Source: Thermodesulfobacteriota bacterium (GTDB taxonomy: Bacteria > Desulfobacterota > Binatia > Bin18). From it: 64,000 bases of DNA. This document shows, piece by piece, positions 1 through 29,698 of this stretch. The notes under the pieces were generated by a model. That model was given only the letters and a program-made list of their open reading frames with translations, searched no databases and had not been told where the DNA came from. The DNA is taken from contig OZ219926.1 of the NCBI GenBank assembly GCA_964291405.2, positions 2,848,001-2,912,000 of the forward strand. Direction: 5' to 3'. A program made the position numbers and the translations under genes. How positions within the stretch are numbered: position 1 is the stretch's first letter; each line of letters begins with the position of its first letter.

Positions 1-96
1 AGACGTGATGAGCGCCGCTGTCGCGCCAAGTATGGCGAGCTGTGGGAACGCTACACGCAGCAGGTGCGTTATTCGATGCTGCCGTTTGTTTATTGA
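1..96 (+). CDS. C-terminal end of an ERG4/ERG24/DHCR7-family sterol reductase (gene begins left of the window)
   Basis: Frame 1 reads RRDERRCRAKYGELWERYTQQVRYSMLPFVY*, matching the family C-terminal motif RDExxCxxKYGxxWxxYxxxVxYxxxPxxY; 8 nt upstream of CYP51; not in the ORF track. Confidence 0.85.
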   Translation, partial: RRDERRCRAKYGELWERYTQQVRYSMLPFVY

Positions 97-104
97 AGGC
101 AGGG

Positions 105-1514
105 ATGGCACAACAGTCTCACAATCTGGCAACCCGGCGTTCGGTGCAGCTCTCGCCAGCGGCGGCAAAAGCCGTTCCCGAGCTCGCGGGTGGGTGGCCG
201 TTAATTGGTCATCTGCTGGATTTTCAAAAGGATCCGGTCTCGATGTTGAGCCGCGGTTGGCGCGAGCGGGGCGAACTCGTCCGGTTCCGGCTCGGTCCCC
301 GCGAGTTTGTTCTCTTCACCGGACCCGAAGCCCACGACGTGTACTTCAGCGCGCCCGAGGATCAGCTGAACGCCAAAGCCGTCTATCAGTTCACGGTCCC
401 CATCTTCGGCCGCGGCGTGGCGTACGACGCCGCCCCCGAGCTCATGGACGAGCAACTCGGATTCCTGTTTCCGGCGCTTCGCGAAGCCGCGATGCGCCGG
501 TTTGCCCGCGTCATGTTCGAGGAGACCAGCCAGTTCGCCGACACGCTCGGCGAGGACGGGGAAGTCGATCTGCCGCTCGCGCTGAACGAGCTGACCGTCA
601 AGATCGCCAGTCGTTGCCTCATTGGAGAGGAAGTTCGGGAGCAGGTGGACGCGGGTTTTGCCGAGGCGTATCACGATCTGCAAAAAGGCATCAACACCCT
701 GGGATTTTTTCTCCCCAGACTTCCCACCCCAGCGCATCGAAGCCGCGACCGGGCCCGGCGACAAGTGGCCGCGCTCTTTAGCCGGATCATGACGGCCCGC
801 CGGCTTTCCGGGGCCCGGCCCGACGATTTCATGCAGACACTCATGCACGCCCGTTACAGGGATGGCCGCGTCTTGGACGACGACGAGATTACCGGAATCC
901 TGTTGACGGTGTTGTTCGCGGGCCAGCACACCAGCGCGGTGCTCGCAACCTGGACCGGTCTGGAGCTCCTGAGGACGCCATCATACCTGACGCGGGTAAG
1001 AGACGAGATACAAGACGTCTACCGCGAGGCAGGAGCCATGAGCCTGGCGAGTCTCAAACGACAAGAGGCGCTGGAACACGCCGTACGTGAGTGCGAGCGG
1101 CTGCACCCGCCATTGATAATGCTGATCCGCAAGGTCCTCAAACCCGTGCGTTACCGAGACTATATCGTGCCGGCCGACACCCTGGCCATGGTGTCGCCGG
1201 CGGTCTCTCACCGGTTGCCCCACGTGTTTGCCAACCCGGAGCGGTTTGCTCCGGACCGCTTTGCTGCCCCCGCTTGCGAGGACAAACAACACCAGTACGC
1301 CTTGATCGGTTTTGGCGGCGGCAAACACCGCTGCATGGGGAAACATTTTGCGTACCTGCAGCTGAAAGCGATCTGGACCGTGCTGCTCGATCGCTTCGAT
1401 TTTCATCTCGACACCGCGTTTCCCGCCCCGAATTACGGGAGCTGGGTGACGGGCCCCGAGACACCCTGCCGGCTCCGCTACCGCCGCCGCTCGCAAGGGA
1501 GCCTTGTCCGATGA
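105..1514 (+). CDS. cyp51: Sterol 14-alpha-demethylase (CYP51)
   Basis: CYP51 signatures YQFTVPIFGRGVAYD and I-helix AGQHTS; ExxR; heme motif FGGGKHRCMG; ATG at 105 preferred over 42. Confidence 0.9.
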   Translation: MAQQSHNLATRRSVQLSPAAAKAVPELAGGWPLIGHLLDFQKDPVSMLSRGWRERGELVRFRLGPREFVLFTGPEAHDVYFSAPEDQLNAKAVYQFTVPIFGRGVAYDAAPELMDEQLGFLFPALREAAMRRFARVMFEETSQFADTLGEDGEVDLPLALNELTVKIASRCLIGEEVREQVDAGFAEAYHDLQKGINTLGFFLPRLPTPAHRSRDRARRQVAALFSRIMTARRLSGARPDDFMQTLMHARYRDGRVLDDDEITGILLTVLFAGQHTSAVLATWTGLELLRTPSYLTRVRDEIQDVYREAGAMSLASLKRQEALEHAVRECERLHPPLIMLIRKVLKPVRYRDYIVPADTLAMVSPAVSHRLPHVFANPERFAPDRFAAPACEDKQHQYALIGFGGGKHRCMGKHFAYLQLKAIWTVLLDRFDFHLDTAFPAPNYGSWVTGPETPCRLRYRRRSQGSLVR

Positions 1515-4500
1515 GCGGCACCACGCTTCGGCCCTACGACGTCGCCATCGTCGGTGCGGGTCCGGTCGGTAGCGTGTGCGCGCTCGCTCACGCGCGCAAA
1601 GGTGCCCGGGTGGCTCTGCTCGAAGCAAATCCCAAAGCGTCCAGACGACTGGCGGGCGAATGGCTGCATCCGCCTGCTGTACAGATGTTACGTGATGTTG
1701 GAGTAGAGCTCGATACGCAGCCCCGCAGCGCCGCGGGTAAAGGATTTGTGGTGTTCCCGGAAGACGGCTCAGAGCCGATAGTGCTGCCTTATCCGGACGG
1801 AGTCCAGGGTTTGGTATGCGAGCATGCAGCACTCGTCTCGCGGCTGCGTGAAGCTATCGAAAACGAATCGGGTGTCGACTGTATGCTCCACGCGCGGGTC
1901 CGTGCGGTCGAAGACGGGCGGGTCACTTTTGCCCGGAACGGCGCCGATGAATCCGTGACCGCGGCACGGATTGTCGGTGCCGACGGCCGGGCCTCAATCG
2001 TGCGTCAGTCGCTGGGTTTATCGACACGCCCGATGACCTGCTCGCGGATGGTAGGGGTCATACTAAGGGGGGTGAGTTTACCGCTAGAGGGGTATGGGCA
2101 TGTGCTGTGTGGTGGACCGGGTCCAGTGCTCATATACCGTCTGGGAGAGCATTACGTCCGGGTCATCGTCGATGTCCCAATGGCCGGCTGGACCCCCGGG
2201 GACCGGATTGGCTTCCTGTCGGATGCGTATGCCGGTGTGTTGCCGGAAACAATGAGACCTGCGTTTATCGAAGCGCTGCGGGGGGGACAATTCAGCGTCG
2301 CGGTCAATAATTTGAGCCTGCGCGTCACATACGGGAGTCCACATCGAGTGCTTATTGGCGATGCGGCCGGGCACTACCATCCCCTGACGGCGGTGGGAAT
2401 GACCCTCGGTTTCGGCGATGCGCTTACGCTGGCCGAGGGCGAGAACTTTCACGACTTCACCGCTAAGCGTTTGCAGGCGACCCGCGCTCCGGAGTTCCTC
2501 GCCATGGGGTTCTACGAGGTCTTTGCCGATCATCGGGCCGAGGTGGTGGCGATCAGACACGCGGTCTACCGGCGTTGGCGGGCAAAATCCACGGTTCGCG
2601 ACCGGACCATGCGTTTACTCGCCTGTGAAGACACCTCGGCGGCCCATCTGGGTCGCGAGTTTGGCGTGACGATGGCCCGGGCGGTTGCCGGGGAGATGCC
2701 GCGATCCTCCGACCAGCTCGCTTGGCGCCGAGCCCGCGACATCGTTTATGCGACCGCTGTGCGCCTCTGGTGGCTCCTGCGTGGCCTTCGGCAGTTACAC
2801 AAGGCGAGAAGCGCGGGCGGAGAAAAAGACGGGCGATTTCGGGACACCTTGGCCCTCGCGTTTCCGGTCTCTATGCCATCGAGAGTGAGTGACCCCCAGC
2901 CCAGCCGCCCGAGGGAGGTTGCGTCACCCGAGGCCGGTCCGGCCTTGCGGCGGGCGAGCGCGCGCTTGTTACATCTCCAGGATGAGGAGGGCGGCTGGGA
3001 AGGTGAGATGGTTTGGTGTCCCATGCTGACCGCGCAATATGTGCTGTTGCACCACATTCTGGAGCGGCCGCTCGAGCCCGGCCGGCGTCGGCGTGTGCTG
3101 CGCTCCTTCGAACGGACCCGTCTCGAAGGGGGCTTATGGGGTTTACACGAGCACGCACCACCCTCCCTGTTTGTCACCACCCTGGTGTACGTCGCGACGA
3201 GATTACTCGGTATCGAGCGGGATGATCCGTTCATCGAGCCGGCCCGGCGATTCCTGCAAGCAGAGGGGGTTCTCGGTATCCCGAGCTGGGGAAAGTTCTG
3301 GCTGGCGCTCCTCAACCTCTACGACTGGCGCGGGGTAAACGCCATCCTACCGGAGCTGTGGAGCTTACCGCGCTGGATCGCGTTACATCCCTCGAACTGG
3401 TACTGCCATACTCGGCTCATCTACATGGCGATGGCGGCGATTTATCCGCATCGGTTCCAGGCCCCCGTCCCGCCCTCGATCGCGTCGCTGCGAGAGGAGC
3501 TATTCCCCCAGGGCTTTGCCAACGTCGATTTTTCCGCCGGCCGCAATCGCTTGCGAGATGCCGACCTCTACGCGCGACCCAGTGTGTGGCTCCGAGCCGG
3601 ATATGAGTGTGCGCGGTTAGTCGAACGGTTCCACGCCAAACGTCTGCGCACCCGATGTATGGAAGCGATCATCCGGCACATCAAATGGGAGTTGCAAACC
3701 ACCAACCATACGAGCATCTCTCCGGTCAGCGGTCTTCTCAACATCCTGGCCTTGTGGCTGCGCGATCCTCACGACACCGATGCCGCCCAGGCGCTCGCGA
3801 AGCTGGATGACTGGATCTGGGAAGACGAGGAGGGTGGAGCGCGCGTTACCGGAGCGAGAAGTACCTCGTGGGATACCGGATTCTCTCTGCAAGCGCTGGC
3901 GACAGTGCCCGAGCTTGACGGGGTTCAAAGCGCCCTCCAACGCGGCGCCGACTTCCTGCGCCGGCAACAAATCGGCACCAGTTTCGCAGGATTCCGCGAG
4001 GCATATCGGATCGACCCCAAAGGCGGCTGGTGTTTTGCCGGGGGATGGCATGGCTGGCCGGTGACGGACTGTACCGCGGAAGCGGTGCTCGGGCTTATCG
4101 CCGCCGACCGCGAGGCCACGAGCCCGGCAGCGCTCGGCGAAGCGATTCGGTTCATGTTGCGTGGTCAGAACCGCGATGGCGGTTTTGGCAGCTATGAGGC
4201 ACAGCGCTCCGTGGTTGGCCTCGAGTGGCTGAATCCGGCCGAGATGTTTGGCGACTCGATGACCGAGCATTCCTATGTCGAGTGCACCGCGTCCTGCCTC
4301 GCGGCGCTCGCCGCCTGTCAGGAGCACTTCCCGCAAATCACGAATGGGGCGGTGAGGCGCGCCATCGCACGGGCTGACACTTGGCTGCGCCGGACCCAGG
4401 CGAGCGATGGGTCGTGGCGCGGCGTGTGGGGCGTGCAGTTCATCTATGGCACTTTCTTCGGGGTCAGGGGGCTGCTTGCTGCCGGGGCTCGTCCCGGCGA

Positions 4501-4912
4501 CCCGGCGCTACGTCTGGCCTGCCGGTGGCTGCTGGACCGCCAGCATGAAGACGGGGGATGGGGTGAGCATCACAGCGGTTGCCTGACCGGCCGCTATGTC
4601 GCACATGAGGAAAGTCAGGTCATCCAAACCGCGTGGGCAATGATCGCGCTCCTCGAGGCAGACGATGCGGACTGGACCGCGATTGCGCGGGGTGCCCGGT
4701 TCTTGCTCAGCACCCAGGAGGCGGATGGGACATGGCCCAAGCAAGACATGGCCGGGGTCTTTTTTCGTACGGCGCTACTGGACTATGTCCTATATCGACA
4801 GTATTTTCCCCTGCACGCGCTCAGTCTCTACGAGCAGCGACGCCAAGCCCGGCTGGATCCGACGTCCCCCGTTCCACTTACCGCCGACGCGACTGGCTGG
4901 AGATGTTCTTAA
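1511..4912 (+). CDS. Squalene epoxidase - oxidosqualene cyclase fusion protein
   Basis: N-terminal GAGPVG FAD motif, RLAGEWLHP and GDAAGHYHPLTAVGMT (epoxidase-like); C-terminal QW repeats and catalytic DCTAE; ATG at 1511 overlaps the CYP51 stop (ATGA). Confidence 0.9.
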   Translation: MSGTTLRPYDVAIVGAGPVGSVCALAHARKGARVALLEANPKASRRLAGEWLHPPAVQMLRDVGVELDTQPRSAAGKGFVVFPEDGSEPIVLPYPDGVQGLVCEHAALVSRLREAIENESGVDCMLHARVRAVEDGRVTFARNGADESVTAARIVGADGRASIVRQSLGLSTRPMTCSRMVGVILRGVSLPLEGYGHVLCGGPGPVLIYRLGEHYVRVIVDVPMAGWTPGDRIGFLSDAYAGVLPETMRPAFIEALRGGQFSVAVNNLSLRVTYGSPHRVLIGDAAGHYHPLTAVGMTLGFGDALTLAEGENFHDFTAKRLQATRAPEFLAMGFYEVFADHRAEVVAIRHAVYRRWRAKSTVRDRTMRLLACEDTSAAHLGREFGVTMARAVAGEMPRSSDQLAWRRARDIVYATAVRLWWLLRGLRQLHKARSAGGEKDGRFRDTLALAFPVSMPSRVSDPQPSRPREVASPEAGPALRRASARLLHLQDEEGGWEGEMVWCPMLTAQYVLLHHILERPLEPGRRRRVLRSFERTRLEGGLWGLHEHAPPSLFVTTLVYVATRLLGIERDDPFIEPARRFLQAEGVLGIPSWGKFWLALLNLYDWRGVNAILPELWSLPRWIALHPSNWYCHTRLIYMAMAAIYPHRFQAPVPPSIASLREELFPQGFANVDFSAGRNRLRDADLYARPSVWLRAGYECARLVERFHAKRLRTRCMEAIIRHIKWELQTTNHTSISPVSGLLNILALWLRDPHDTDAAQALAKLDDWIWEDEEGGARVTGARSTSWDTGFSLQALATVPELDGVQSALQRGADFLRRQQIGTSFAGFREAYRIDPKGGWCFAGGWHGWPVTDCTAEAVLGLIAADREATSPAALGEAIRFMLRGQNRDGGFGSYEAQRSVVGLEWLNPAEMFGDSMTEHSYVECTASCLAALAACQEHFPQITNGAVRRAIARADTWLRRTQASDGSWRGVWGVQFIYGTFFGVRGLLAAGARPGDPALRLACRWLLDRQHEDGGWGEHHSGCLTGRYVAHEESQVIQTAWAMIALLEADDADWTAIARGARFLLSTQEADGTWPKQDMAGVFFRTALLDYVLYRQYFPLHALSLYEQRRQARLDPTSPVPLTADATGWRCS

Positions 4913-5643
4913 TGGAATTTGAATCCGATGCGGCGCACGACAGCACAGGAGGCAAATTGGAATCGACCATGCGGGTAGCGGTATTGACTGGATTGGTGAT
5001 TGCCGTAACCACGGCAGCCTCTATCGGCTTCGGCTATGCCGTGCACGGCAATCTGAACGCTTACTACGGCCTGCTGAGCCTGTTTTTCTGCATCAACCTG
5101 CCGATCTGCTACTGGGAGATCTGCCTGTTCCTGCGACGCGACGCCGTCGAGCGACGTGCGGACTACTGGCGCGCCAGACGAAGAAAGACTGGTCGAACGC
5201 CGGCCGTTGAGTTTCTGTTGAGTGAGATTCCGCTGAGCAAGGCATTGTCCCCGATCGTCTGGGCGGACGTGTGGGCCACCTATAGCATGTACGACGGATC
5301 CTATGCCGACCGACGCACGTTCGGCTTCAACGCAGATATCGCCAACGGCTTTTTCACGCCAATCCCGGCCCTGGTTCTGCACGCGACCTTTGCGGTCGGT
5401 TTTTTGCCTGCCCTACTGGCGGGCATCCTGGGTGTGATGCTGTTTTGGCAGTGGACCTACGTCACGTCGGTTTACTTGGTGAGCTTTTTCGTAGCCAGGC
5501 GGCATAAGCAAATCGCGCGGGGCGATCTGTGGCTCTACATCTGGAGTACGAACTCGCCGTGGGTGCTCTTCGCGCTTCTGGGGCTCTATGTTTCCGTTCG
5601 ACTGATTGTCGATGGCGATTACGAGGTTCTGGGCCACCGGTAA
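4912..5643 (+). CDS. EXPERA/EBP-like membrane protein, putative sterol delta8-delta7 isomerase
   Basis: Multi-TM protein with WATYSMYDGSY (WxxYxxxDxxY) and NSPW motifs; TAATG coupling to the cyclase stop. Confidence 0.6.
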   Translation: MEFESDAAHDSTGGKLESTMRVAVLTGLVIAVTTAASIGFGYAVHGNLNAYYGLLSLFFCINLPICYWEICLFLRRDAVERRADYWRARRRKTGRTPAVEFLLSEIPLSKALSPIVWADVWATYSMYDGSYADRRTFGFNADIANGFFTPIPALVLHATFAVGFLPALLAGILGVMLFWQWTYVTSVYLVSFFVARRHKQIARGDLWLYIWSTNSPWVLFALLGLYVSVRLIVDGDYEVLGHR

Positions 5644-5782
5644 CGTCCCGTTAGGCCACGCTCATTGCCTTCCTGCTCCCGACCCCGCGCGTGCGGCCCG
5701 AAAAAGCCGCAGTCCTCGGCGGATGCTTACGATGGGAATGGGCGACCTCGTGGAGGAACTCGGGGTCGAAAACCTACTTCGT

Positions 5783-6814
5783 TCAGTCTCCCGAGCGCCG
5801 GGGTTTACGGGCCAGGAAGAAATACATCGGTGTAAAAATACCGGACTCGCCACCGTCGACCAAGGCGTCCGCCGCCCTGTTTAACAGCGTGCTGACCGAG
5901 GCGGCGCCCTCCGGAAACACCCGCAACTTCTCGCCAACCCTCAACACCAGATTGGTCAAGGCGCGGCCAACGGGTGTGCGCGGAATACTCTTGAGACTGA
6001 GGTCGCGACCCTGCAAGGCGCGGTACCAGGGCGTTTCCGGATGCGATTCGGGGGCAAGGTCGTGGGATTCCAGGAGTTCGAATCCGGCCCCGCGCAATGC
6101 GGTGCATATCTCCGACGAGAAGGCGATATCCGGTAGTGCATCCCCCGCCATGATATCTTCCTTGATCCGCAGGTGCTCTGCGTTCCTCGGATCGAATTTC
6201 TCCGTGAGACACCAGTCGTAGCCCGCGAAACAAGCCCCCGGACGCAGGACGCGGAAGATCTCCCGGAACGCGGCAGTCTTGTCCGGTGCGTGGGGCATGG
6301 ACTCGATGGCAATGGCGGCATCGTAGTGGTCGTCACCTTCGGGAACGTGCATGTAGTCGCCGTGGATGAAACGGCACAACGACTGGACATCTCGGGTGTG
6401 CACTTTCGCGCGCTCGATCTGATAGGCGTTAGTGTTGATCCCGACGAAGCTGGCCCCGGAATAGCGGGCCAGATTGCCCATGGGCCCGCCTACCCCGCAC
6501 CCCGCATCGAGCACTTGCATCTCCGGTCCCAGGGACAGCCGATCGGCGAGAAAACGCTGGTGCCTGAGCAGCGACGCCTTGAAGCTCTCGCTCCGGCGCC
6601 GGGGAGCAAAGTGCCAGGACTGACCCCAGCCGAACTCGTAGAAATCGGTCACCAAGTCGTAGTAGTGATTGACGAGCAACTGATACCGCTCTTTTCTCCG
6701 CTCCGAGCCAGCATCGTGGAGCCCGGTGTATTGATCGACCACGGATTTCACTTCATCCGGGGCGAGATTCGCGAGGGAACGAGAGCTCGATCGTTTGGCG
6801 GGCGTACGGGTCAT
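5783..6814 (-). CDS. Sterol 24-C-methyltransferase (SMT/Erg6-like)
   Basis: YYDLVTDFYEFGWGQSWHFA (region I), LDAGCGVGGP (SAM binding), IESMPHAP (region III), YDW, C-terminal GIFTPMYFFLARKP. Confidence 0.9.
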   Translation of the reverse strand: MTRTPAKRSSSRSLANLAPDEVKSVVDQYTGLHDAGSERRKERYQLLVNHYYDLVTDFYEFGWGQSWHFAPRRRSESFKASLLRHQRFLADRLSLGPEMQVLDAGCGVGGPMGNLARYSGASFVGINTNAYQIERAKVHTRDVQSLCRFIHGDYMHVPEGDDHYDAAIAIESMPHAPDKTAAFREIFRVLRPGACFAGYDWCLTEKFDPRNAEHLRIKEDIMAGDALPDIAFSSEICTALRGAGFELLESHDLAPESHPETPWYRALQGRDLSLKSIPRTPVGRALTNLVLRVGEKLRVFPEGAASVSTLLNRAADALVDGGESGIFTPMYFFLARKPRRSGD

Positions 6815-6818: not shown

Positions 6819-7907
6819 TCATTCTCCGCTCTCCGTCCCGCGCGTCAAATACTCCCGCCACTTCCGCACCGTCACTTTTTGAAAAGCCCGGACCACCGGA
6901 TTGAGCTCGATAGGAGGGGCGTCCCAATGTCTCTCGTACCCCTGCTGCTCCGCTTCGACCGCAAATCGATCCTGGGCGAGTAAAGGGCCGATGAGCAGAC
7001 GGTTCGCGATCTTCAAAACCGTGGTCATGGCGAAACGGGGAATACGTACCGGCAGCAAAGGTATCTTCAGCGACTTGAAGTAGAACAGGAAGAACGTCCG
7101 GGTGGTCCGCTCATCGATTGGCAGCACAAAAAGCCAGTGTTTTATCTCGTCATCGGTGTTCGACCACTGATAGGGGTATTGAAAGCACAGCTCTATGTGA
7201 TTGGTGTCGAGCCGGTTGTGATCGACAAACAGCCCGGAGATACGCCCGCGTCCGACCCGCGTATCGTAGGCGAGGTGCACGTTGTCACCGACAGTCTCGC
7301 AACGGGTGAGGGTGGCGCCTTCGAAGGGACGGTATCGACGGTGCAGATGGGCGTGGGAGAAGTCGCTCACGTTGTCGATCACCATCGAGTGGTGGGCCGA
7401 CCAGGTGAAGCTGAGCGGGACACAGGCCCACCGCGCGGGTCCTTCGAGCTCGGGGATGTCCGGGATCTGGCGCCGCTGTGCCTGCTCCGGTTTCCCAGGG
7501 AACAACCAGATCAGACCGTAACGGACCGTCACGGGATAGGTCCTCAGCGAGACCTTCGGGAGACCTCGTCCGAAGCGGTCGTGGGGGATCTCGGCAAGGC
7601 GCCCGTTTTCATCATACTGCCAGCCATGGTAGGCGCACACGAGCCGGCAGCCTTGCACCTCGCCCAGGGAGAGTTTGAGCTGGCGATGCGCACAGCGATT
7701 CTCGACCGCGTGAAACGAGCCATCTATCCCGCGAAATAACGCAATGGAACGTTTCCAGAAAATGATCTCGACCACTGTGCCCGGTTTGACTCGGTGCGCT
7801 TCTTCAACCGCGTACCAGTAATCCGGGTCCAGACCCGCGGCGCGCGCTTGCTGACGCAAGCTGCCGGCCTCCTCGAAGCCGGAGGGCGCACTCGGTGCCG
7901 GGCTCAT
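6819..7907 (-). CDS. Rieske non-heme iron oxygenase, SdmA-like (candidate sterol C-4 methyl oxidase)
   Basis: CAHR...CAYHG Rieske motif, DNVSDFSHAHLH iron site; coupled to an SDR gene inside the sterol cluster. Confidence 0.7.
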   Translation of the reverse strand: MSPAPSAPSGFEEAGSLRQQARAAGLDPDYWYAVEEAHRVKPGTVVEIIFWKRSIALFRGIDGSFHAVENRCAHRQLKLSLGEVQGCRLVCAYHGWQYDENGRLAEIPHDRFGRGLPKVSLRTYPVTVRYGLIWLFPGKPEQAQRRQIPDIPELEGPARWACVPLSFTWSAHHSMVIDNVSDFSHAHLHRRYRPFEGATLTRCETVGDNVHLAYDTRVGRGRISGLFVDHNRLDTNHIELCFQYPYQWSNTDDEIKHWLFVLPIDERTTRTFFLFYFKSLKIPLLPVRIPRFAMTTVLKIANRLLIGPLLAQDRFAVEAEQQGYERHWDAPPIELNPVVRAFQKVTVRKWREYLTRGTESGE

Positions 7908-9049
7908 TTCGGACCCCCAACGGAAGGCATCTGTATGCCTTGGCTCGGTATGAGGTTTTCCACTTGTTCCGTGGCGTTCACGCGCGGGCGTTTCGCGAGC
8001 GGATTCGTGATCGCGTTGCGGTGGTAGTGAAAGGCGTAGGCCTCATGAACCGCAGCCTGGATACTGGTTGGCTGATAGCCGAGCTCCCGTCTCGCTTTGC
8101 CGGTGTCGGCGTGACGGCGCTTTTGTAACAGGCGGATGGCGCCAGGGGTAAAACGCTGGGGAAAGCTCGGATGAAACCGGCTCAGATAAAAGCTCGCCGC
8201 TTCCGAAAAGACGAGCATCAGGCGGGTCGGGATTCGCCGGTGCGGTCGCGGCACGCCTGAGACCTCCTCGAACAGATCCAAGATGTCCGAGATGGTCTTG
8301 TACTCGCTGCTAAAGATGTACTTTTCGCCCGAGCGTCCTCGGTGCATGCACAACAGATGTCCTTCGACAATGTCCCGTGCCGCGACAAACTCGAAACCGC
8401 CATCAACGTACGCATAGAGCTTGCCGTTCGTGTAATCGCATAAGGTCCTGCCCAACCGCGAGGGGAAAAAATCGCTGCCCCCGACCACCGCACAACACGT
8501 TGCGACCACAACATCTTGTCCCGCCGCCGCGGCGCGCCAGCACTCGTGCTCGACGAGTGCCTTGCTACGCTCGTAGGGCATCGTGCGTTCCATGGGATAG
8601 AACTGCATCGTCTCGTCGCTGGGCGCGGACGGATCATCCAAATCATAACCGACCGCACTGAAAGAGCCCGTCACCACCACCCGGCCGGCCCCCGCCTCCC
8701 GCGCCGCTTGCAGCACGTTGCGGGTACCGAGAACGTTGCACTCGAATACTTCCCGGCGATGAGCGCGGTTGCCTTCGATGGTTGAAACCTTGGCCGCGCA
8801 GTGATAGACGCCTTGACAGCCCGTGAGCGCATGCCTGGCGGCATTCAAATCTCGGATGTCACCAAACGCGCGTTCAACCTCGAGGCCTTCCAGTGCTTCG
8901 TTGTTGTCCTCGTGTCTCAGCAACACCCGGACTCGAACGCCGTCGTCGAGCAGTCGGCGCACGAGATTGGCGCCCACATGCCCGGCCGCGCCGGTGACGA
9001 GAACGGGTGGCGTCGATGAGCCAGCAGATGTGCTTGATCGTGAGGTCAT
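7904..9049 (-). CDS. NAD-dependent epimerase/3beta-HSD-like SDR, SdmB-like (candidate C-4 decarboxylase/reductase)
   Basis: TGAAGHVG Rossmann motif, YERSK catalytic motif; 4-nt overlap with the Rieske gene; start could be 9049 or 9100. Confidence 0.7.
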   Translation of the reverse strand: MTSRSSTSAGSSTPPVLVTGAAGHVGANLVRRLLDDGVRVRVLLRHEDNNEALEGLEVERAFGDIRDLNAARHALTGCQGVYHCAAKVSTIEGNRAHRREVFECNVLGTRNVLQAAREAGAGRVVVTGSFSAVGYDLDDPSAPSDETMQFYPMERTMPYERSKALVEHECWRAAAAGQDVVVATCCAVVGGSDFFPSRLGRTLCDYTNGKLYAYVDGGFEFVAARDIVEGHLLCMHRGRSGEKYIFSSEYKTISDILDLFEEVSGVPRPHRRIPTRLMLVFSEAASFYLSRFHPSFPQRFTPGAIRLLQKRRHADTGKARRELGYQPTSIQAAVHEAYAFHYHRNAITNPLAKRPRVNATEQVENLIPSQGIQMPSVGGPK

Positions 9050-9239
9050 CTCGTCTAGTGTACTGCTTCCAAAGATACCGCCTCCTTGAGGCCGGGTCAA
9101 TACGTGGGTAAACGGGGTAGTAGGTCAAGTTTGCGATGTAAGTTATTGTTTCTACTGGCTAAAAAATTTCAAAGCATGTAGCCAACGGGCGAGGAACGCG
9201 CTATCTTTCTCCCATGCGATACGACTGGAGAAAAGAATA

Positions 9240-10606
9240 GTGCCGCGGCGCATAGCCATTGTCGGCGGCGGCATATCAGGGCTGGCGGCCGCGTGGGCGC
9301 TGGATCACGACCCGGACCGATTCGATTTTCGGCTGTTTGAGGCGCAGGACCGGATTGGCGGAAACGCGATCACTGCCGATATGCCGCAGGATGACGGCAG
9401 CTTCATTCCTTTCGATATTTCCGTCACCGCTTGCATTTCGTCGGGGTACCACCACATCCTGCTGTTGATGAAAAAGTTCGGCATCGAACTGCTCGATACC
9501 AGATTCAGCTACAGTGTGAAGTACCGTGGCGGCGTGTACGCCCACGATTTCGACTCCGACATCCGAGAGCAACTGCAATCCGAAATTGCGAAGTTTCAAC
9601 GAATCCTGAGGCGTCTGAAGTGGTTCGGTTGGCTGAGCCGGTCCCAATCGAAGTTTCTGAACGCCCTCAATCCGTTCAACTACATCAGCATGGGGACGGT
9701 CCTGAATCTGGCCGGTTTCTCCGGGGACTTCCGGTACAAGATACTGAAGCCCATGTTCGTCAACTTCCTGATGGCGACCAATGTGTTCGATATGCCTGCA
9801 TCTCTCTTTACGCGGTATCTCGAATTCTTTGATATCGAAAGCGCCACGCCCATGCAGACGTGGGACCGGGGAACACGACGTATCTACGAAAACCTGTCGG
9901 CCAATTTCCGGGACAAGATATGCCTCAACCGGCCTGTCCGAAAGGTGTATCGCCAGTCGTCCGGCATCGTGGTCGAGGACGAGGACGGTGTACAGGAGAC
10001 GTTCGACGAGGTGATCTTCGCCTGCAATGCGAACCAGACGCTGATGATCCTCGACAACCCCACGATGCTGGAGCGCTATATTCTCTCGTCGATCCGGTAC
10101 GAGAGCGAACTGCACAACCATACGGTCGTGCATTCGGACGCCTCAGTCCTTCCGGACAACGCAGTGCAGCCCCTGAAAACGCGGAGCAATCATATCGAGC
10201 AATACGGCGCCCGACCGGACAATTATGAAATCACCTACATCATGCACAACCAGCAGCCGTGGGCCAATCGGTCTGACAAGCCTTGTCTGGTAACCTACAA
10301 CCCCATCAGCGAAATCGATGGGAAGAAGATTATCGGAAAGTGGTGGTTCCAGCACATTGTGCATGACGTGCGCCACGTCGCCCTGCTCGTTCCTTTGTTC
10401 CGCTTCATTCAGGGCAAGAAAGGCAAACCTGGCACTGTGGCGCCCATACGCTGATCAACAGCCAGGAAACCTGCTTTGTCAGCGGGCTCGCCGCTGCAAC
10501 ACAGATCGGTGTGGATTATCCCTTCGACGATCCCGGGGCGCGGCGGGCGTTCAACCATTACGGGAGTATCATGTATGGTCGGGGGTTCAGGAAGGCGAAG
10601 GGCTGA
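9240..10606 (+). pseudogene. FAD-dependent oxidoreductase (COG2907-like), frameshifted near 10420 (real lesion or assembly error)
   Basis: GGGISG...FEAQDRIGGNA N-terminus; after QGK the C-terminus RQTWHCGAHTLINSQETCFVSGLAAA...RKAKG* continues in another frame to TGA at 10604-10606. Confidence 0.75.
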
Positions 10607-10642: not shown

Positions 10643-11722
10643 TCACGGATGGGTGGATTTGACCTTGCCCGATTCCAGCCTTTCCGGCTGAAGCTCCGGA
10701 TAGAACTGCCGACAATAGCGACGGTATTTCCCTATGGGGCCGTCCGTCTGGCACAGCCGCGGGGAAGACCGATGCCGCTTCCGGTCCCAGATCACCACGT
10801 CCTGCAGCACCTCCCGTTTTTGCCATGAAAGCAGAATGTGTTTCATCAGCCTTTGGCGCAACTTCATCGGTACGAAACCCAGACCCGAGATGAACCGTCG
10901 GGGCTTGCGGATTTCCCGCAGTTGGCCGACCAGCACAAGATCGATGAGGGTGCCATCGATGGGTGTGGGAAGTACCCACAATCTCGCATCCATATCGATG
11001 GTTTTCTCGTGGATTTCGACGAAGGAGTAGCCCAGTCCATAGATGTGAGTGACGGCCGAGACGTCATACACGAGGTCTTTTACACCCAGGAGCCTGTGAA
11101 CGCTTTTGAAGTCGAAGCAACTCTTCAGGTAGGCGCCGTCCACTGTTACCGAACCGACCGGACTCACATTGTCGTAGCCGTGTACGTGGCCCAGGTGTCC
11201 GAGGTCCACGGAATTCTCCGCTGTTTCCTGGGGATGGCCGCGGAATCGGAGGGTCCGGAATCCCAACTCGCTCCACTCCGCACCGGTGGGTGGGTCACCT
11301 GGAAGGTCCCAATGCGGAGGCCGGCCGCCGCTCCCGAACCAGGCGAAGACCAGACCGAGGATTTCTCTGGTCTGGTATACCTTCAGTTTCGCGGCTCTGG
11401 GTGCCGGGGCGTTCGGAGTCGCAACGCATTGGCCGGTCGTATCGTACTCAAACCCGTGAAACGGACAGACGAGGCGACCGTTGCATACCTGGCCGCCAGC
11501 CTCCGGCCCCAGGTACGAGCCCAGGTGCGGACAGACCGCGTCGGCCACGCAGACACGGCCATCCTCGTCGCACCAGGCGACGATTTCCTCGCCCAGCCAC
11601 GTCTTCTCGATCAGTTTCTCTCGCAGAATGGACTCGCGGCTTGCGACGAAATACCACCCCTCAGGGAACGCTGGTAGCTCATCCATGCTAGTCATGGACA
11701 GTCTTTTGGTGTTCCTAGTCAT
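10643..11722 (-). CDS. Rieske oxygenase of the Neverland (cholesterol 7-desaturase)/KshA type
   Basis: FPEGWY, CPHLG...CPFHG, ENSVDLGHLGHVHG, QDVVIWDRK, DGPIGKYRRYCRQFY. Confidence 0.75.
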   Translation of the reverse strand: MTRNTKRLSMTSMDELPAFPEGWYFVASRESILREKLIEKTWLGEEIVAWCDEDGRVCVADAVCPHLGSYLGPEAGGQVCNGRLVCPFHGFEYDTTGQCVATPNAPAPRAAKLKVYQTREILGLVFAWFGSGGRPPHWDLPGDPPTGAEWSELGFRTLRFRGHPQETAENSVDLGHLGHVHGYDNVSPVGSVTVDGAYLKSCFDFKSVHRLLGVKDLVYDVSAVTHIYGLGYSFVEIHEKTIDMDARLWVLPTPIDGTLIDLVLVGQLREIRKPRRFISGLGFVPMKLRQRLMKHILLSWQKREVLQDVVIWDRKRHRSSPRLCQTDGPIGKYRRYCRQFYPELQPERLESGKVKSTHP

Positions 11723-12562: not shown

Positions 12563-13984
12563 ATGGCAGATCACGCATTTCCTCCCATGACGAGCGGCGG
12601 CGTTCCCGTTCTGGGACACGCGCTTCAATTCCTACGCGACCCGACGGCCCTCATAGAACGGGGCTATCATGAGCACGGCTCGATTTTCTCCTTCCAACTC
12701 GGGCTGAAACGGGCGGTCGTTCTGGTCGGACCGGAGAACAATCGCTTCTTTTTTAGTGAGACAGACAAATTGCTCTCCATCCGCGAGAGCTATCCCTTCT
12801 TCATCAAGATGTTCCACGAACGCTTCTATGTCTTCGCCGAGTTCGAGGAATACCTGGAACAGCGAGCCATTATCATGCCGCGGTTTCAGCCCCAGCAGAT
12901 GCACCAGTATGTCACCACCATGGCTAACGAAACGTTTGCCCTGATGGAACGTCTGGGCGAGGAGGGGTCCTGTGATCTGATTCCAACCCTGGGTCCACTG
13001 GTGATGCATATTGCCGCGCACGCCTTTCTGGGCGACGATTTTCGACAGCGTCTGGGCAGTCATTTCTTCCAGGACTTCCGCAATTTTTCGGGAGGGATAG
13101 AGCCGCTTCTACCCCTCTGGCTGCCACTGCCTAGACTGATTCGGAGTCAACGGGCCAAAAGAAAATTGCACAAAATCCTGGGCGAACTCATAGAAGAGCG
13201 CCGTCACAGTCCGGTCGACCCGCCGGATTTTTTACAGACGTTGATTGCGTCCCACTACTCTGACGGGAGGCCGATTGACGACGTGTTAATTATTAATCTG
13301 ATCCTCCTGCTGGTATGGGCCGGACACGAGACAACCGCCGGGCATATCAGCTGGGGTCTGATTGACCTGCTCCTCCACCCGACCTATCTCCAGTCTGTGC
13401 GCGACGAACAGGCTGATATTCTTGACAATGGCCGGGATCTCTCGATGACAGAGGTGCGTCAACTGCGACGGATTGAGTGGGCGCTCAAAGAAACCGAGCG
13501 GCTCCATCCGGTCGCCTTTGTCCTCATGCGCAAGGCCGCCGAGACCTTTGCCTGGCAGGGCTTCCGCATTCCTCAGGACGCCATGGTGTTTATTGCCCCG
13601 CTTCTCTCGCATCGGATGCCCGAGATATTCCCGGACCCCGACCAGTATCGTCCGGAACGGTTCTCCCCGGAGCACGATGAGTCTCGTCAGCCCCATAGCC
13701 TGATTGGGTTTGGAGGGGGCGTGCACCGTTGCGCTGGGGTTCATTTTGCCTATCTTGAGATGAAAATCGTCCTCTCCCTCCTCCTCCAGCAGTATGAATT
13801 CACCCTGCTTGACCCCGAGCCCAAACCGGTCAGCGGAACAAAAACGAAATGGCCGTCCAGTCCGTGTCGGGTCCAATACCGGCGACGGGCTGACATGCCA
13901 CCCAAGGTGCCGCGTCATTTGCCTCCCGTTGGGGAAGCCCACCCCGTCGGCCCACCGGCAGCGCACTGTCCGGTTCCGCACTAA
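12563..13984 (+). CDS. Cytochrome P450, divergent CYP51-like
   Basis: AGHETT I-helix, KETERLHP, FGGGVHRCAG; clearly similar to the CYP51 at 105 but lacks the canonical B' signature; GGAGG RBS. Confidence 0.85.
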   Translation: MADHAFPPMTSGGVPVLGHALQFLRDPTALIERGYHEHGSIFSFQLGLKRAVVLVGPENNRFFFSETDKLLSIRESYPFFIKMFHERFYVFAEFEEYLEQRAIIMPRFQPQQMHQYVTTMANETFALMERLGEEGSCDLIPTLGPLVMHIAAHAFLGDDFRQRLGSHFFQDFRNFSGGIEPLLPLWLPLPRLIRSQRAKRKLHKILGELIEERRHSPVDPPDFLQTLIASHYSDGRPIDDVLIINLILLLVWAGHETTAGHISWGLIDLLLHPTYLQSVRDEQADILDNGRDLSMTEVRQLRRIEWALKETERLHPVAFVLMRKAAETFAWQGFRIPQDAMVFIAPLLSHRMPEIFPDPDQYRPERFSPEHDESRQPHSLIGFGGGVHRCAGVHFAYLEMKIVLSLLLQQYEFTLLDPEPKPVSGTKTKWPSSPCRVQYRRRADMPPKVPRHLPPVGEAHPVGPPAAHCPVPH

Positions 13985-14063
13985 GCGTTTTCGTGCTTAG
14001 CTAGGGATTCCGCCATCCGCTGCATGATAAGGATGGGTGTGTGCGAAGCACGGGAGGAGACGT

Positions 14064-15215
14064 ATGAGCATCAAAGGAAAAGCGGCAATCTCCGGGTTTG
14101 CCGAAATGCCGCCCCAAAAAGGCGCCGGGAATATTACGCCGCTGGGGATTATTGCCAATGTGGCGCGTGAGGCAATCGCCGATGCCGGTCTGGAAAAGAG
14201 CGATATTGATGGGCTGCTGACCGGCTGGGCGCTGAGCGACTATAGCGTGCTGTGGCCTTCGGTGGTGGCCGACTACCTGCAAATCCGCCCCACCTATTTT
14301 AATCAGGTCGAGCTGGGCGGCGCCTCTGCCGCCGGTATGGTCTGGCGGGCAGCGGCCGCCATTGAAGCCGGGATGTGCAACTCCGTGCTGTGCGTCGTGG
14401 GTGACCGGCGGGCCCGGGCGCGACAGATGCCGCCCTTCCCGAGCATTGAGGCGGAATTCGATGCACCCTACGGCCTGATTGCCGCCAACCCCGGCTATGC
14501 GCTCATCGCCCAACGCCATAAATATGAATACGACACCACCGCGGAACAAATGGCCAAGGTTGCGGTAGACCAACGCAAGAGCGCCTGCCAAAACCCGAGC
14601 GCCTTATTCGGGAACAAAGAAATCGACATTGATGACGTGCTGAACTCCCGCATGATTGTTGACCCCCTACACCTGCTTGAGATCGTCAGTCCGTGTACCG
14701 GGGGCGGCGCGTTTATTGTCACCAGTACCGAACGCGCCAAAGACGGCCCTCACAAGCCCGTAGTCTTGCTCGGAGCGGGTGAGGCCGGCGGCCATTCGAG
14801 CATTACCCATGCGCGCAGCCTGACGACGTCGTTAGTCAAACCGGCTGCGGAATCTGCCTTTCACATGGCCGGAGTCACACCGCAGGATATGGACTTTGTG
14901 CAACCCTACGACTGCTACACCATCACCGTGATCGTGACTCTTGAAGACGCCGGCTTTTGTGAAAAAGGCGAGGGGGGTCGGTTTGTTGAAGACCACGACC
15001 TGTCATACGCGGGCGACTTTCCGTGCAATACCCACGGCGGCCAACTGTCTTTTGGGCAACCGGGGCTCGCCGGTGGTATGAGCCATGTTATTGAGGGCGC
15101 ACGGCAGCTCATGGGACGCGGGGAAGGGCGGCAGGTCAAAGATGCCTCTATCGGCTATGTGAACGGTAACGGTGGAATCATGGCCGAGCAGTGCAGCCTC
15201 GTCTTGGGTGTGTAG
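14064..15215 (+). CDS. SCP-x/Ltp2-type thiolase-like protein
   Basis: GGASA, YDCYT, NTHGGQLS motifs; GGAGGAG RBS before ATG 14064. Confidence 0.85.
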   Translation: MSIKGKAAISGFAEMPPQKGAGNITPLGIIANVAREAIADAGLEKSDIDGLLTGWALSDYSVLWPSVVADYLQIRPTYFNQVELGGASAAGMVWRAAAAIEAGMCNSVLCVVGDRRARARQMPPFPSIEAEFDAPYGLIAANPGYALIAQRHKYEYDTTAEQMAKVAVDQRKSACQNPSALFGNKEIDIDDVLNSRMIVDPLHLLEIVSPCTGGGAFIVTSTERAKDGPHKPVVLLGAGEAGGHSSITHARSLTTSLVKPAAESAFHMAGVTPQDMDFVQPYDCYTITVIVTLEDAGFCEKGEGGRFVEDHDLSYAGDFPCNTHGGQLSFGQPGLAGGMSHVIEGARQLMGRGEGRQVKDASIGYVNGNGGIMAEQCSLVLGV

Positions 15216-18534: not shown

Positions 18535-18543
18535 TCTTCTTCC

Positions 18544-22520: not shown

Positions 22521-22529
22521 GAGGAACTT

Positions 22530-23405: not shown

Positions 23406-23408
23406 AAG

Positions 23409-24557: not shown

Positions 24558-24662
24558 GGGTACTCAAGAAGAGCAGGACTCTTGAGCCACAGCCAATAAA
24601 TAGGCTATGTTTCTGTCCTTCAAGCCTTTTTGACAAGGGCTCTGGTCCGGGCAGGGGAGATA

Positions 24663-29104: not shown

Positions 29105-29149
29105 CCGGCACTCCTCGTCACGCGCCGTTCAGGCACCGGAAGGGCCTCC

Positions 29150-29521: not shown

Positions 29522-29575
29522 AATGAAGATATCTCTCCCATGCTCCGTGTATGAACATCTTTCTCAGAGACACAA

Positions 29576-29698
29576 CTATTGCGTTGGTTTCTCAGGTTTC
29601 TGAGGGGATGATTTGCGGGCATGGGAAATCGCCTCGCCGGCCACGATACCGAGACCGGTCAGAAAGACGGCAAAAGCAAAGATGACAAGCCAGTCCAT
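29576..29698 (-). CDS. 40-aa small membrane protein
   Basis: MDWLVIFAFAVFLTGLGIVAGEAISHARKSSPQKPEKPTQ*; TAATG coupling and GGAGG RBS. Confidence 0.5.
   Translation of the reverse strand: MDWLVIFAFAVFLTGLGIVAGEAISHARKSSPQKPEKPTQ

What the first reader, a model, noticed from the sequence alone, without database searches (positions are those of the whole stretch)
1511..4912. Epoxidase-cyclase fusion with non-canonical product-determining residues
Seen: one 1133-aa ORF joins an epoxidase-like domain to a DCTAE cyclase. The usual G(T/Y)NGSQxWDT motif reads TGARSTSWDT (~3848-3877), so neither Thr nor Tyr sits at the human-381 equivalent. HGWPVTDCTAE (4049-4081) gives His449/Val453. Established: lanosterol synthases typically have T/(C,Q)/V and cycloartenol synthases Y/H/I at these sites. 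The epoxidase motifs are also altered (GEWLHP for GELLQP; HPLTAVGMT for HPLTGGGMT). Inference: the product may be an unusual cyclisation isomer or a mixture, and the fusion may channel oxidosqualene. Such fusions are known in a few bacteria.
Basis: partly seen in the sequence, partly recalled or inferred. Interest (0 to 1): 0.78.

Follow-up and report, generated by a model that had tools for sequence, protein, structure and literature searches.

The report
Fused squalene epoxidase–oxidosqualene cyclase gene
One bacterial gene joins the two enzymes that turn squalene into the first sterol, but its "odd" residues are normal for a large bacterial enzyme clade, so it most likely makes ordinary lanosterol.

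Summary
Window 1511-4912 (+) is one 1133-aa ORF with a squalene-monooxygenase module (aa 1-458) joined end to end to an oxidosqualene cyclase (aa ~470-1133). All four quoted motifs sit at the stated coordinates. Human T381/C449/V453 align to Ala782/His847/Val851.

Ala381 (with a one-residue deletion), His449 and Val453 are invariant in 121/121 close homologues and in 79/80 genome loci. The same signature occurs in many standalone bacterial cyclases, including those of Methylococcaceae and a Gemmataceae MAG. Published work says only position 453 predicts the product in bacteria (Val = lanosterol). It also says Methylococcus and Gemmata carry His449 yet make lanosterol. The "altered" epoxidase motifs are likewise the norm in standalone bacterial homologues.

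The fusion is not rare. The best 80 species-level loci, from at least 10 phyla, all carry it full length at 65-94% identity; the closest are Candidatus Binatia MAGs. "Fused SMO/OSC homologs" are already mentioned in Brown et al. 2023. The gene sits in a sterol operon: ERG24, CYP51, the fusion, then an EBP-like ORF, with SMT and sdmA/B nearby.

Most likely function: squalene to oxidosqualene to lanosterol. Substrate channelling is plausible but untested. Ordinary member of a known but uncharacterised family.

The parts
1..96 (+). 3' end (last 31 codons and stop) of an ERG4/ERG24-family sterol C-14 reductase gene, the first gene of the operon
   Evidence: The translation matches 29 of 31 residues at the C-terminus of L001 7498-8589. 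That L001 gene hits Pfam ERG4_ERG24 at 5e-71.
105..1514 (+). CYP51 (sterol 14-alpha-demethylase). The ORF listing gives a GTG at 42; the in-frame ATG at 105 is the likelier start.
   Evidence: Pfam p450 at 4.4e-56. The best PDB matches are CYP51 entries 7jj1/6mcw/6mi0 at about 1e-103. ATG read directly. The stop overlaps the fusion's ATG. A homologue lies directly upstream of the fusion in 58 of 80 loci.
1511..4912 (+). Fused squalene monooxygenase - oxidosqualene cyclase gene (1133 aa plus stop)
1511..2884 (+). Squalene-monooxygenase module, aa 1-458. It contains GAGPVG (nt 1553-1570), GEWLHP (1655-1672) and GDAAGHYHPLTAVGMT (HPLTAVGMT at 2378-2404), followed by C-terminal helices at aa 402-450.
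   Evidence: Pfam SE scores 75.3 bits against a cut-off of 20.1. Human SQLE 6c6n matches at 1.4e-22. Foldseek gives TMt 0.83 over 459 columns to 6c6n. Standalone homologues of 440-482 aa end at query positions 450-470.
2885..2914 (+). Junction, aa 459-468: the only internal stretch of low model confidence
   Evidence: pLDDT below 50 for residues 459-468
2915..4909 (+). Oxidosqualene-cyclase module, aa 469-1133. Key codons: Ala782 (nt 3854-3856, human 381), His847 (4049-4051, human 449), Val851 (4061-4063, human 453), catalytic Asp853 (4067-4069, human 455).
   Evidence: Pfam SQHop_cyclase_N and _C. TIGR01787 scores 515.8 bits, above its cut-off. Human OSC 1w6k matches at 5.9e-133. Foldseek TMt 0.84.
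4912..5643 (+). Conserved 243-aa membrane protein with no family assignment. Its ATG overlaps the fusion's stop (TAATG). Candidate distant EBP/EXPERA-like sterol 8-isomerase.
   Evidence: Homologues occur in 24 of 80 loci. Pfam finds nothing for this copy. Weak EBP hits in 5 of 24 relatives, best E 0.022. Atlas features score 0.92 for a cluster set in which 20% of members carry PF05241 EBP. The model is poor (pLDDT 64), but human EBP 8w0r/6oht are the only PDB matches with TM about 0.5.
5783..6814 (-). Sterol C-24 methyltransferase (SMT)
   Evidence: Pfam Sterol_MT_C at 6.5e-22 plus methyltransferase domains. A homologue lies near the fusion in 47 of 80 loci.
6819..7907 (-). SdmA-like Rieske 4-methylsterol monooxygenase
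   Evidence: Pfam Rieske and VanA_C. NCBIfam NF052579 scores 410 bits, below the equivalog cut-off of 600. Present in 57 of 80 loci.
7904..9100 (-). SdmB-like NAD(P)-dependent sterol C-4 demethylation protein
   Evidence: Pfam Epimerase and 3Beta_HSD. NCBIfam NF052578 scores 309.5 bits, below the cut-off of 600. Present in 55 of 80 loci.

Best explanation
This is a natural two-enzyme fusion that carries out the first two oxygen-dependent steps of sterol synthesis. The N-terminal FAD monooxygenase module (aa 1-458) epoxidises squalene to 2,3-oxidosqualene. The C-terminal class II cyclase module (aa ~470-1133; catalytic Asp853 in DCTAE) cyclises that to a protosterol, most likely lanosterol. The Ala381/His449/Val453 pattern and the GEWLHP and HPLTAVGMT motifs are ancestral features of a large bacterial clade (the Group 1 type cyclases), not adaptations of this gene. 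The gene is translationally coupled in an operon: ERG24, CYP51, the fusion, then an EBP-like ORF. SMT, sdmA and sdmB lie next to it, so its product feeds a pathway to 4- and 14-demethylated, side-chain-methylated sterols. Shown here: the domain identities, the residue mapping, their conservation, the distribution and the synteny. Inferred: both activities, lanosterol as the product, and hand-over of oxidosqualene between two membrane-facing active sites held in a fixed arrangement.
For: Domains and folds. The signature is invariant in 121/121 close homologues and present in 79/80 genome loci. The same signature occurs in 17 full-length standalone and 8 fused 50%-identity representatives. It also occurs in 120/120 standalone bacterial OSCs, including Methylococcaceae genera and a Gemmataceae MAG. 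Literature passages seen: in bacteria V453 equals lanosterol and I453 equals cycloartenol, fully matching lipid analyses (Wei 2016). Methylococcus and Gemmata have His449 and make lanosterol (Desmond & Gribaldo 2009). Group 1 holds only bacterial lanosterol-synthase homologues (Wei 2016). Cyclases of sponge-metagenome sterol clusters fall in Group 1 (Brown 2023). Epoxidase motifs are shared by standalone homologues. Context: CYP51 lies directly upstream in 58/80 loci, sdmA in 57, sdmB in 55 and SMT in 47; ERG24 lies upstream. A CYP51 plus ERG24 operon fits a Delta-8 product such as lanosterol (inference). Architecture: the AF2 model has pLDDT 87.2 and pTM 0.87, with only residues 459-468 disordered between the modules. 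Standalone epoxidases end and standalone cyclases begin at the junction.
Against: No member of the fused clade has a measured product in any paper my searches found. The fused proteins form their own subclade, sister to the clade that holds the Methylococcaceae and Gemmataceae enzymes (FastTree only). The NCBIfam oxidosqualene-cyclase model TIGR03463 scores 725.9 bits, below its cut-off of 851. I did not read residue 381 of Methylococcus capsulatus or Gemmata obscuriglobus themselves; only relatives were available, and that set came from a profile built on sequences already carrying the signature. A Welander-lab preprint reports one metagenomic bacterial cyclase that makes lanosterol plus parkeol, so a mixed product is possible. 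The pTM value is indirect: no inter-domain error map or coordinates were available, so docking of the modules is not shown.
Confidence: 0.7

Rival explanations
1. One reading: Ala at 381 plus the adjacent one-residue deletion, combined with His449 and Val453, makes the cyclase release an unusual isomer or a mixture (for example parkeol with lanosterol).
For: Ala782 really replaces Thr/Tyr381, with a one-residue deletion. The fused subclade has no characterised member. A preprint table lists one metagenomic bacterial OSC that gives lanosterol and parkeol. From recall only: mutations at the plant cycloartenol-synthase equivalents of 381, 449 and 453 shift products among cycloartenol, lanosterol and parkeol.
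Against: The same signature is carried by standalone cyclases of Methylococcaceae genera and a Gemmataceae MAG. Published passages say Methylococcus and Gemmata make lanosterol with His449, and that V453 tracked lanosterol in every bacterium tested. The operon partners CYP51 and ERG24 act on Delta-8 14-methyl sterols (established knowledge), which suits lanosterol rather than parkeol.
Confidence: 0.12
2. The cyclase is a cycloartenol synthase, because it keeps the plant-type His449.
For: His at 449 belongs to the eukaryotic cycloartenol-synthase triad Y381/H449/I453.
Against: Position 453 is Val, not Ile, and 381 is Ala, not Tyr. In bacteria I453 marks cycloartenol synthases. The 25 Y/H/I representatives are distinct sequences, and the 3 of them (P0161, P0163, P0181) that I put in the tree fall in the outgroup clade.
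Confidence: 0.03
3. One module is a degenerate passenger: for example, the epoxidase half with its 'altered' motifs is inactive and a separate enzyme supplies oxidosqualene.
For: The motifs differ from the human enzyme: GEFLQP becomes GEWLHP, and HPLTGGGMT becomes HPLTAVGMT. The Tyr of human 'VNGYMIH' aligns with Phe79.
Against: These positions are invariant or nearly so across 127 fused proteins. They are shared by standalone homologues of 440-482 aa, which indicates purifying selection on a working enzyme. GAGPVG and the GD motif are intact. The fold matches human SQLE with TMt 0.83.
Confidence: 0.05
4. The fusion is an assembly or frameshift artefact that joins two adjacent genes.
For: In many bacteria the two genes are adjacent and separate (Santana-Molina 2020, passage).
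Against: 120 protein clusters of 1107-1168 aa cover 95-100% of the query. All 80 species-level loci match over residues from about 1-9 to 1107-1133, apart from two that are truncated (L007, L044), including records titled as whole chromosomes. Published gene tables give a single gene ID for both enzymes.
Confidence: 0.01

Closest known systems
Fused SMO/OSC genes of sterol gene clusters in sponge- and coral-associated metagenomes and MAGs (Brown et al. 2023, Nat Commun, PMC10070321)
   Same: One gene carries both activities. In that paper's Supplementary Data 1, ERG1 and ERG7 hit the same gene ID in an Aplysina aerophoba scaffold, a Chromatiales MAG and a Nitrospira MAG. ERG24, ERG11, SMT, sdmA and sdmB lie beside it. 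The Methods speak of 'fused SMO/OSC homologs'. The window holds the same gene set.
   Different: The closest relatives here are Candidatus Binatia MAGs at 89-94% identity. The gene order also differs: SMT, sdmA and sdmB are downstream and convergent, rather than sdmB-sdmA-ERG24 upstream. The fused enzyme itself was not assayed in that paper, as far as the passages and supplement I read show.
Group 1 bacterial lanosterol-synthase-type cyclases (Wei et al. 2016; for example Methylococcus and Gemmata)
   Same: Relatives from Methylocaldum, Methylomagnum, Methylolobus and a Gemmataceae MAG carry the same GA(R)SxxWDT and H(x)WPV(S/T)DCTAE signature. All fall in one bacterial clade, split from eukaryote-like cyclases with 100% local support.
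   Different: Those enzymes are standalone, at about 640-690 aa. Representatives of that sister clade (for example P0134, P0141, P0142) are 41-44% identical to the window's protein. The fused proteins form their own subclade.
Human lanosterol synthase (PDB 1w6k) and human squalene epoxidase (PDB 6c6n)
   Same: Same folds (TMt 0.84 and 0.83). Same catalytic DCTAE Asp, His232 equivalent and Val453. FAD-binding GxGxxG and GD motifs are present.
   Different: 36% and 22% identity. Thr381 becomes Ala with a one-residue deletion, and Cys449 becomes His. GEFLQP becomes GEWLHP and GGG becomes AVG. In eukaryotes the two are separate proteins.
'Clusters of steroid genes' (ERG24-CYP51-LSS) in Ircinia sponge symbiont MAGs (PMC9531527)
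   Same: The same three-gene core, reported in 115 of 537 MAGs across 10 phyla including Binatota. This matches the cross-phylum spread seen.
   Different: The passages I saw call the third gene LSS/ERG7 and do not mention that it is fused to an epoxidase.

Membership tests
Oxidosqualene cyclase (class II triterpene cyclase) | Two alpha/alpha-barrel domains (Pfam SQHop_cyclase_N and SQHop_cyclase_C) and the OSC fold | tested here: met
   173.2 and 187.4 bits against cut-offs of about 26. Foldseek TMt 0.84 to human OSC.
Oxidosqualene cyclase (class II triterpene cyclase) | Catalytic Asp in the DCTAE motif (human D455) | tested here: met
   D853 in VTDCTAE aligns with D455. It is invariant in 121/121 homologues.
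Oxidosqualene cyclase (class II triterpene cyclase) | Score above NCBIfam's curated cut-off for TIGR03463 (2,3-oxidosqualene cyclase) | tested here: not met
   725.9 bits against a cut-off of 851. The broader TIGR01787 squalene/oxidosqualene cyclase model is met, at 515.8 against 322.7.
Lanosterol synthase, eukaryotic signature | T381 / C or Q449 / V453 | tested here: not met
   The window has A782 / H847 / V851; only position 453 agrees.
Lanosterol synthase, bacterial rule (Wei 2016; Desmond & Gribaldo 2009) | Val at 453 (Ile would indicate cycloartenol synthase) | tested here: met
   V851. The rule is quoted from passages.
Lanosterol synthase | Lanosterol is the product of 2,3-oxidosqualene cyclisation | not testable with these tools
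   Needs expression and GC-MS or NMR.
Cycloartenol synthase | Y381 / H449 / I453 | tested here: not met
   Only H449 agrees.
Squalene monooxygenase (SE / ERG1 family, group A flavin monooxygenase) | Pfam SE domain above the gathering score, an N-terminal GxGxxG motif, and a GD(A)xxxxHP motif | tested here: met
   SE scores 75.3 bits against 20.1, and FAD_binding_3 scores 75.5 against 22. GAGPVG and GDAAGHYHPLTAVGMT are present. Foldseek TMt 0.83 to human SQLE.
Squalene monooxygenase (SE / ERG1 family) | Eukaryotic consensus motifs GE(F/L)LQP and HPLTGGGMT | tested here: not met
   The window has GEWLHP and HPLTAVGMT. The same variants occur in standalone bacterial homologues: 113 of the 114 that cover the site carry Trp51 and His53.
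Squalene monooxygenase (SE / ERG1 family) | Epoxidation of squalene with FAD, O2 and a reductant | not testable with these tools
   No electron-donor partner was identified.
Fused SMO/OSC family of bacterial sterol clusters | Both modules in one uninterrupted ORF, with homologues full length | tested here: met
Fused SMO/OSC family of bacterial sterol clusters | Lies in a cluster with ERG24, CYP51, SMT, sdmA and sdmB | tested here: met
   The same neighbours occur in 47-58 of 80 loci.
Group 1 bacterial OSC clade | Groups with bacterial-only cyclases, apart from eukaryotic and eukaryote-like ones | tested here: inconclusive
   The FastTree tree puts it in a 42-row bacterial clade (100% local support) with Methylococcaceae and Gemmataceae relatives. 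The reference sequences of Wei 2016 were not available, and only a quick tree was made.

The most novel reading that the evidence does not exclude
The fused proteins form a distinct cyclase subclade with no characterised member. They spread horizontally through at least 10 phyla at 65-94% identity. The most novel reading not excluded has two parts. First, the fusion is a self-contained 'squalene to protosterol' module whose rigid two-domain architecture hands oxidosqualene directly to the cyclase, and that self-sufficiency is what made it so transferable. Second, its product is not pure lanosterol: a lanosterol/parkeol mixture or another protosterol, which would feed unusual sterols in sponge holobionts. 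That would bear on the debate over sponge sterane biomarkers.
Probability: 0.1. Interest if true: 0.6.

Novelty: new member of a known kind. Interest (0 to 1): 0.3.

Why it matters
Bacterial sterol clusters with side-chain methyltransferases complicate the reading of fossil steranes as markers of eukaryotes or sponges (Brown 2023). The fused epoxidase-cyclase is the entry enzyme of those clusters and has not been assayed in any paper my searches found. Its product, and whether the fusion channels oxidosqualene, would show what these uncultured symbionts can make. For this finding in particular, the residues flagged as unusual are the normal state of a large bacterial clade. They are not evidence of new chemistry.

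Tried and rejected
I obtained named relatives through a profile search instead.
2. Papers: Banta 2017 (PMC5240688) and Summons 2006 (PMC1578733) are not held. Figures of Wei 2016 and of Desmond & Gribaldo 2009 are not held. So I could not read residue 381 of Methylococcus capsulatus or Gemmata obscuriglobus themselves.
3. Literature searches for a characterised natural epoxidase-cyclase fusion found only the Methods sentence in Brown 2023. Hoshino & Gaucher 2021 and Santana-Molina 2020 gave no relevant 'fused/fusion' passages.
4. Complex prediction was not run. The two intact modules (about 458 and 640 residues) exceed the 1000-residue limit, and trimming either fold would make the result uninterpretable.
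5. Assembly artefact, cycloartenol synthase and dead-domain readings were considered and rejected (see the rivals).
6. For the downstream ORF 4912-5643, Pfam on the window copy, the PDB by sequence and the PDB by profile gave nothing significant. Only weak, concordant EBP leads remain.
7. The promoter/terminator scan of 4800-5900 gave nothing above chance expectation.
Full report
OBSERVATION. Window 1511-4912 (+) is an uninterrupted 1133-codon ORF that ends in TAA at 4910-4912. The longest frame reaches back to a GTG at 1091, but the ATG at 1511 is the better start. It overlaps the stop of the upstream P450 gene (ATGA), it is preceded by AGGGAG, and Met1 aligns with the N-termini of 127 homologues.

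DOMAINS. Pfam finds FAD_binding_3 (aa 9-308) and the squalene-epoxidase domain SE (154-383), followed by SQHop_cyclase_N (480-773) and SQHop_cyclase_C (784-1108). The best PDB sequence matches are human lanosterol synthase 1w6k (E 5.9e-133, aa 487-1110) and human squalene epoxidase 6c6n (E 5.4e-22, aa 9-304).

STRUCTURE MODEL. An AlphaFold2 model built on 127 sequences has mean pLDDT 87.2 and pTM 0.87. Its two halves superpose on human OSC (TMt 0.84) and human SQLE (TMt 0.83, 459 columns). No solved structure spans both halves.

RESIDUE MAPPING. In the HMMER alignment to 1w6k, human G380-T381-N382-G383-S384-Q385-I386-W387 lies opposite G781-A782-R783-gap-S784-T785-S786-W787. C449 aligns with H847, V453 with V851 and D455 with D853; His232 is conserved. 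MAFFT gives the same answer for 381. Where exactly the gap falls cannot be settled by sequence.

IS THE SIGNATURE SPECIAL? It is not.
- Close family: the first search gave 120 clusters of 1107-1168 aa at 72-89% identity. In all 121 sequences, the window included, A782, H847, V851 and D853 are invariant.
- Genome loci: 79 of 80 carry A/H/V. For the remaining one, L062, my script found no intact frame.
- Wider sequence space: I searched the cyclase module against 1.84 billion 50%-identity representatives and got 5059 hits at E <= 0.001. Of the best 150, 129 cover all four sites. A/H/V/D is the commonest pattern, with 40 rows: 8 fused, 17 full-length standalone proteins of 625-689 aa, and 15 fragments. 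Next come Y/H/I (25 rows) and T/Q/V (8 rows).
- Named relatives: a profile of 22 standalone sequences returned 120 standalone cyclases of 627-716 aa. All 120 have A/H/V/D. They include Methylocaldum marinum, Methylomagnum ishizawai, Methylolobus aquaticus, a Gemmataceae MAG, Minicystis, a Candidatus Methylomirabilis MAG and a Bryobacteraceae MAG. This last set is biased, because 18 of the 22 profile sequences already carried the full A/H/V signature.

WHAT THE LITERATURE SAYS. These are passages I read, not whole papers.
- Wei et al. 2016 state that T381/C,Q449/V453 against Y381/H449/I453 is the eukaryotic rule. Only one of the three residues is conserved in bacterial cyclases. In every bacterium they analysed, V453 went with lanosterol and I453 with cycloartenol. 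They describe Group 1 as containing only bacterial lanosterol-synthase homologues.
- Desmond & Gribaldo 2009 state that Methylococcus and Gemmata have His449 although they make lanosterol, so only position 453 is indicative.
- Brown et al. 2023 place the cyclases of sponge-metagenome sterol clusters in Group 1.
- A Welander-lab preprint reports that most early-branching metagenomic bacterial cyclases it tested make lanosterol or cycloartenol, and one makes lanosterol plus parkeol.
- I could not read residue 381 of M. capsulatus or G. obscuriglobus directly. The figures are not held, and Summons 2006 and Banta 2017 are not held.

EPOXIDASE MOTIFS. Against human SQLE, GEFLQP reads GEWLHP and HPLTGGGMT reads HPLTAVGMT. 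The Tyr of human 'VNGYMIH' aligns with Phe79. GEWLHP is invariant in the family. Among the best 120 shorter homologues of the epoxidase module (226-696 aa, 49-96% identity), 113 of the 114 that cover the site have Trp51 and His53, and the second motif reads HP(M/L)TAVG(M/L)T in most. These are clade features, not changes peculiar to the fusion.

ARCHITECTURE OF THE FUSION. 73 standalone epoxidase homologues of 440-482 aa end at query positions 450-470. Standalone cyclases have only 10-38 residues before query position 480. The only internal low-confidence stretch of the model is residues 459-468. So two complete enzymes are joined end to end with almost no linker. The model shows long helices at aa 402-434 and 440-450 just before the junction. 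By analogy with the membrane-binding C-terminal helices of human SQLE (recalled, not tested), these may sit on the membrane beside the cyclase's substrate entrance. A pTM of 0.87 for a 458 + 660-residue protein suggests a defined mutual orientation. It is indirect evidence, because no error map or coordinates were available.

DISTRIBUTION. The best 80 loci, one per species, all match the full length except two truncated ones (L007, L044), at 65-94% identity.
- The closest are three Candidatus Binatia MAGs (94, 89 and 89%), so the window probably comes from that lineage.
- By phylum, as named in the record titles: Pseudomonadota 42 (25 Gamma, 17 Alpha), Actinomycetota 9, Nitrospirota 8, Chloroflexota 5, Binatota 3, Acidobacteriota 3. 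Thermodesulfobacteriota, Nitrospinota, Rhodothermota and Latescibacterota have one each, and 6 are unassigned.
- Identity of 65% or more across 10 phyla points to horizontal transfer.
- Several titles carry sponge-related names, for example L032, L036, Porisulfidus and Poriferihabitaceae. This agrees with the Ircinia study, which found ERG24-CYP51-LSS clusters in 115 of 537 MAGs from 10 phyla including Binatota.

PHYLOGENY. This is a FastTree tree of 52 rows with local supports only. All 10 fused representatives fall in one clade of 14 rows (support 99), together with 4 standalone sequences. That clade lies inside a 42-row bacterial clade (support 100), which also contains the Methylococcaceae/Gemmataceae group (support 98). 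It is separate from the eukaryote-like representatives. The label 'fused' needs at least 2 changes on well-supported branches. A single origin followed by later splits, or mis-called genes, is possible but not shown.

GENOMIC CONTEXT.
- Window 1-96 encodes the last 31 residues of an ERG4/ERG24-family reductase, 29 of 31 identical to the L001 gene that hits Pfam ERG4_ERG24 at 5e-71.
- CYP51 follows (ATG 105 to 1514; best PDB hits are CYP51 entries at about 1e-103).
- Then comes the fusion, and then a 243-aa membrane ORF (4912-5643) whose ATG overlaps the fusion's stop.
- Convergent with these are SMT (5783-6814), an sdmA-like gene (6819-7907) and an sdmB-like gene (7904-9100).
- Across the 80 loci, CYP51 is directly upstream in 58, sdmA is present in 57, sdmB in 55 and SMT in 47. 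In 22 loci the fusion sits in an unrelated context.

MECHANISM. Shown: both modules are intact, strongly conserved and co-transcribed with downstream sterol enzymes. Inferred: (i) the N-terminal module epoxidises squalene; (ii) the C-terminal module protonates the epoxide through Asp853 and releases lanosterol, as the bacterial V453 rule and the CYP51/ERG24 partners suggest; (iii) the fixed side-by-side arrangement passes oxidosqualene on within the membrane leaflet. I put (i) and (ii) together at about 0.7, and (iii) at about 0.5.

COMPARISON AND NOVELTY. The fusion is already in print, though only in passing. Brown et al. 2023 trimmed 'fused SMO/OSC homologs' for their tree. Their Supplementary Data 1 gives the same gene ID for ERG1 and ERG7 in three clusters. 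My searches found no assay of such a fusion. The window's gene is therefore a new, Binatia-type member of a known, uncharacterised family.

LIMITS. No product data exist for the fused subclade. The tree is a quick one. The named standalone relatives came from a biased profile search.

Noticed in passing
window 4912-5643 (+): A conserved 243-aa multi-helix membrane ORF, translationally coupled to the fusion (TAATG). It has no Pfam hit for this copy. Homologues occur in 24 of 80 loci. Three weak but concordant leads point to the EBP/EXPERA family (sterol 8-isomerase): Atlas features score 0.92; Pfam EBP hits 5 of 24 relatives (best E 0.022); and human EBP 8w0r/6oht are the only PDB folds with TM about 0.5, despite a poor model (pLDDT 64). 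It could be the 8-isomerase not listed for these clusters in Brown 2023's Supplementary Data 1.
   Followed up: partly
window 12563-13984 (+): A second, CYP51-like P450. It is only 31-35% identical to the CYP51 genes of the loci. Its best PDB match is 9wat_A, 'Cytochrome P450', at E 8.5e-165, far better than its match to CYP51 entries (1e-77). Function unknown.
   Followed up: partly
window 9240-10454 (+) and 10643-11722 (-): An FAD amine-oxidase-family protein, whose homologue accompanies the cluster in 17 of 80 loci, and a KshA-like Rieske oxygenase, present in 6 of 80. Both are candidate further sterol-modifying enzymes.
   Followed up: no
window 14037-15215 (+): A thiolase-domain / lipid-transfer-type protein (NF004811, 321 bits, below its cut-off) at the edge of the sterol cluster.
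   Followed up: no
L001 1-7475: In the closest Binatia relative the cluster extends upstream. It holds a GPP34 (Golgi phosphoprotein 3) domain fused to a P450 (5448-7475), another KshA-like Rieske protein, a fatty-acid-hydroxylase (ERG3/ERG25-type) protein, a DUF7802 protein and an AcrB-like transporter fragment.
   Followed up: no
proteins P0217 and P0219: Two divergent fused representatives (1096 and 1073 aa) depart from the signature. One has I/H/A. The other has A/H/C with Lys in place of the catalytic Asp, so it may not be a working cyclase. They join on long branches in the tree.
   Followed up: no
L006 and 21 other loci: In 22 of 80 loci the fusion is not next to CYP51, sdmA/B or SMT. 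In L006, for example, it lies among glycosyltransferase, ROK and aminotransferase genes.
   Followed up: partly
window 15833-24398 (-): A BatA/BatD, TPR, vWA, DUF58 and MoxR-ATPase gene row (aerotolerance-type operon).
   Followed up: no
window 44154-46328 (-): A 724-aa protein with no Pfam hit that matches NCBIfam TIGR04096, DNA phosphorothioation-associated putative methyltransferase, at 624.7 bits against a cut-off of 150.
   Followed up: no
window 32860-33486 (+): A protein with two RRM_1 RNA-recognition motifs (E 4.8e-42), a domain more typical of eukaryotes.
   Followed up: no
window 24630-31733: A NuoF-like subunit plus a molybdopterin oxidoreductase (formate-dehydrogenase-like pair, + strand) and a tungsten-type aldehyde:ferredoxin oxidoreductase (- strand).
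   Followed up: no
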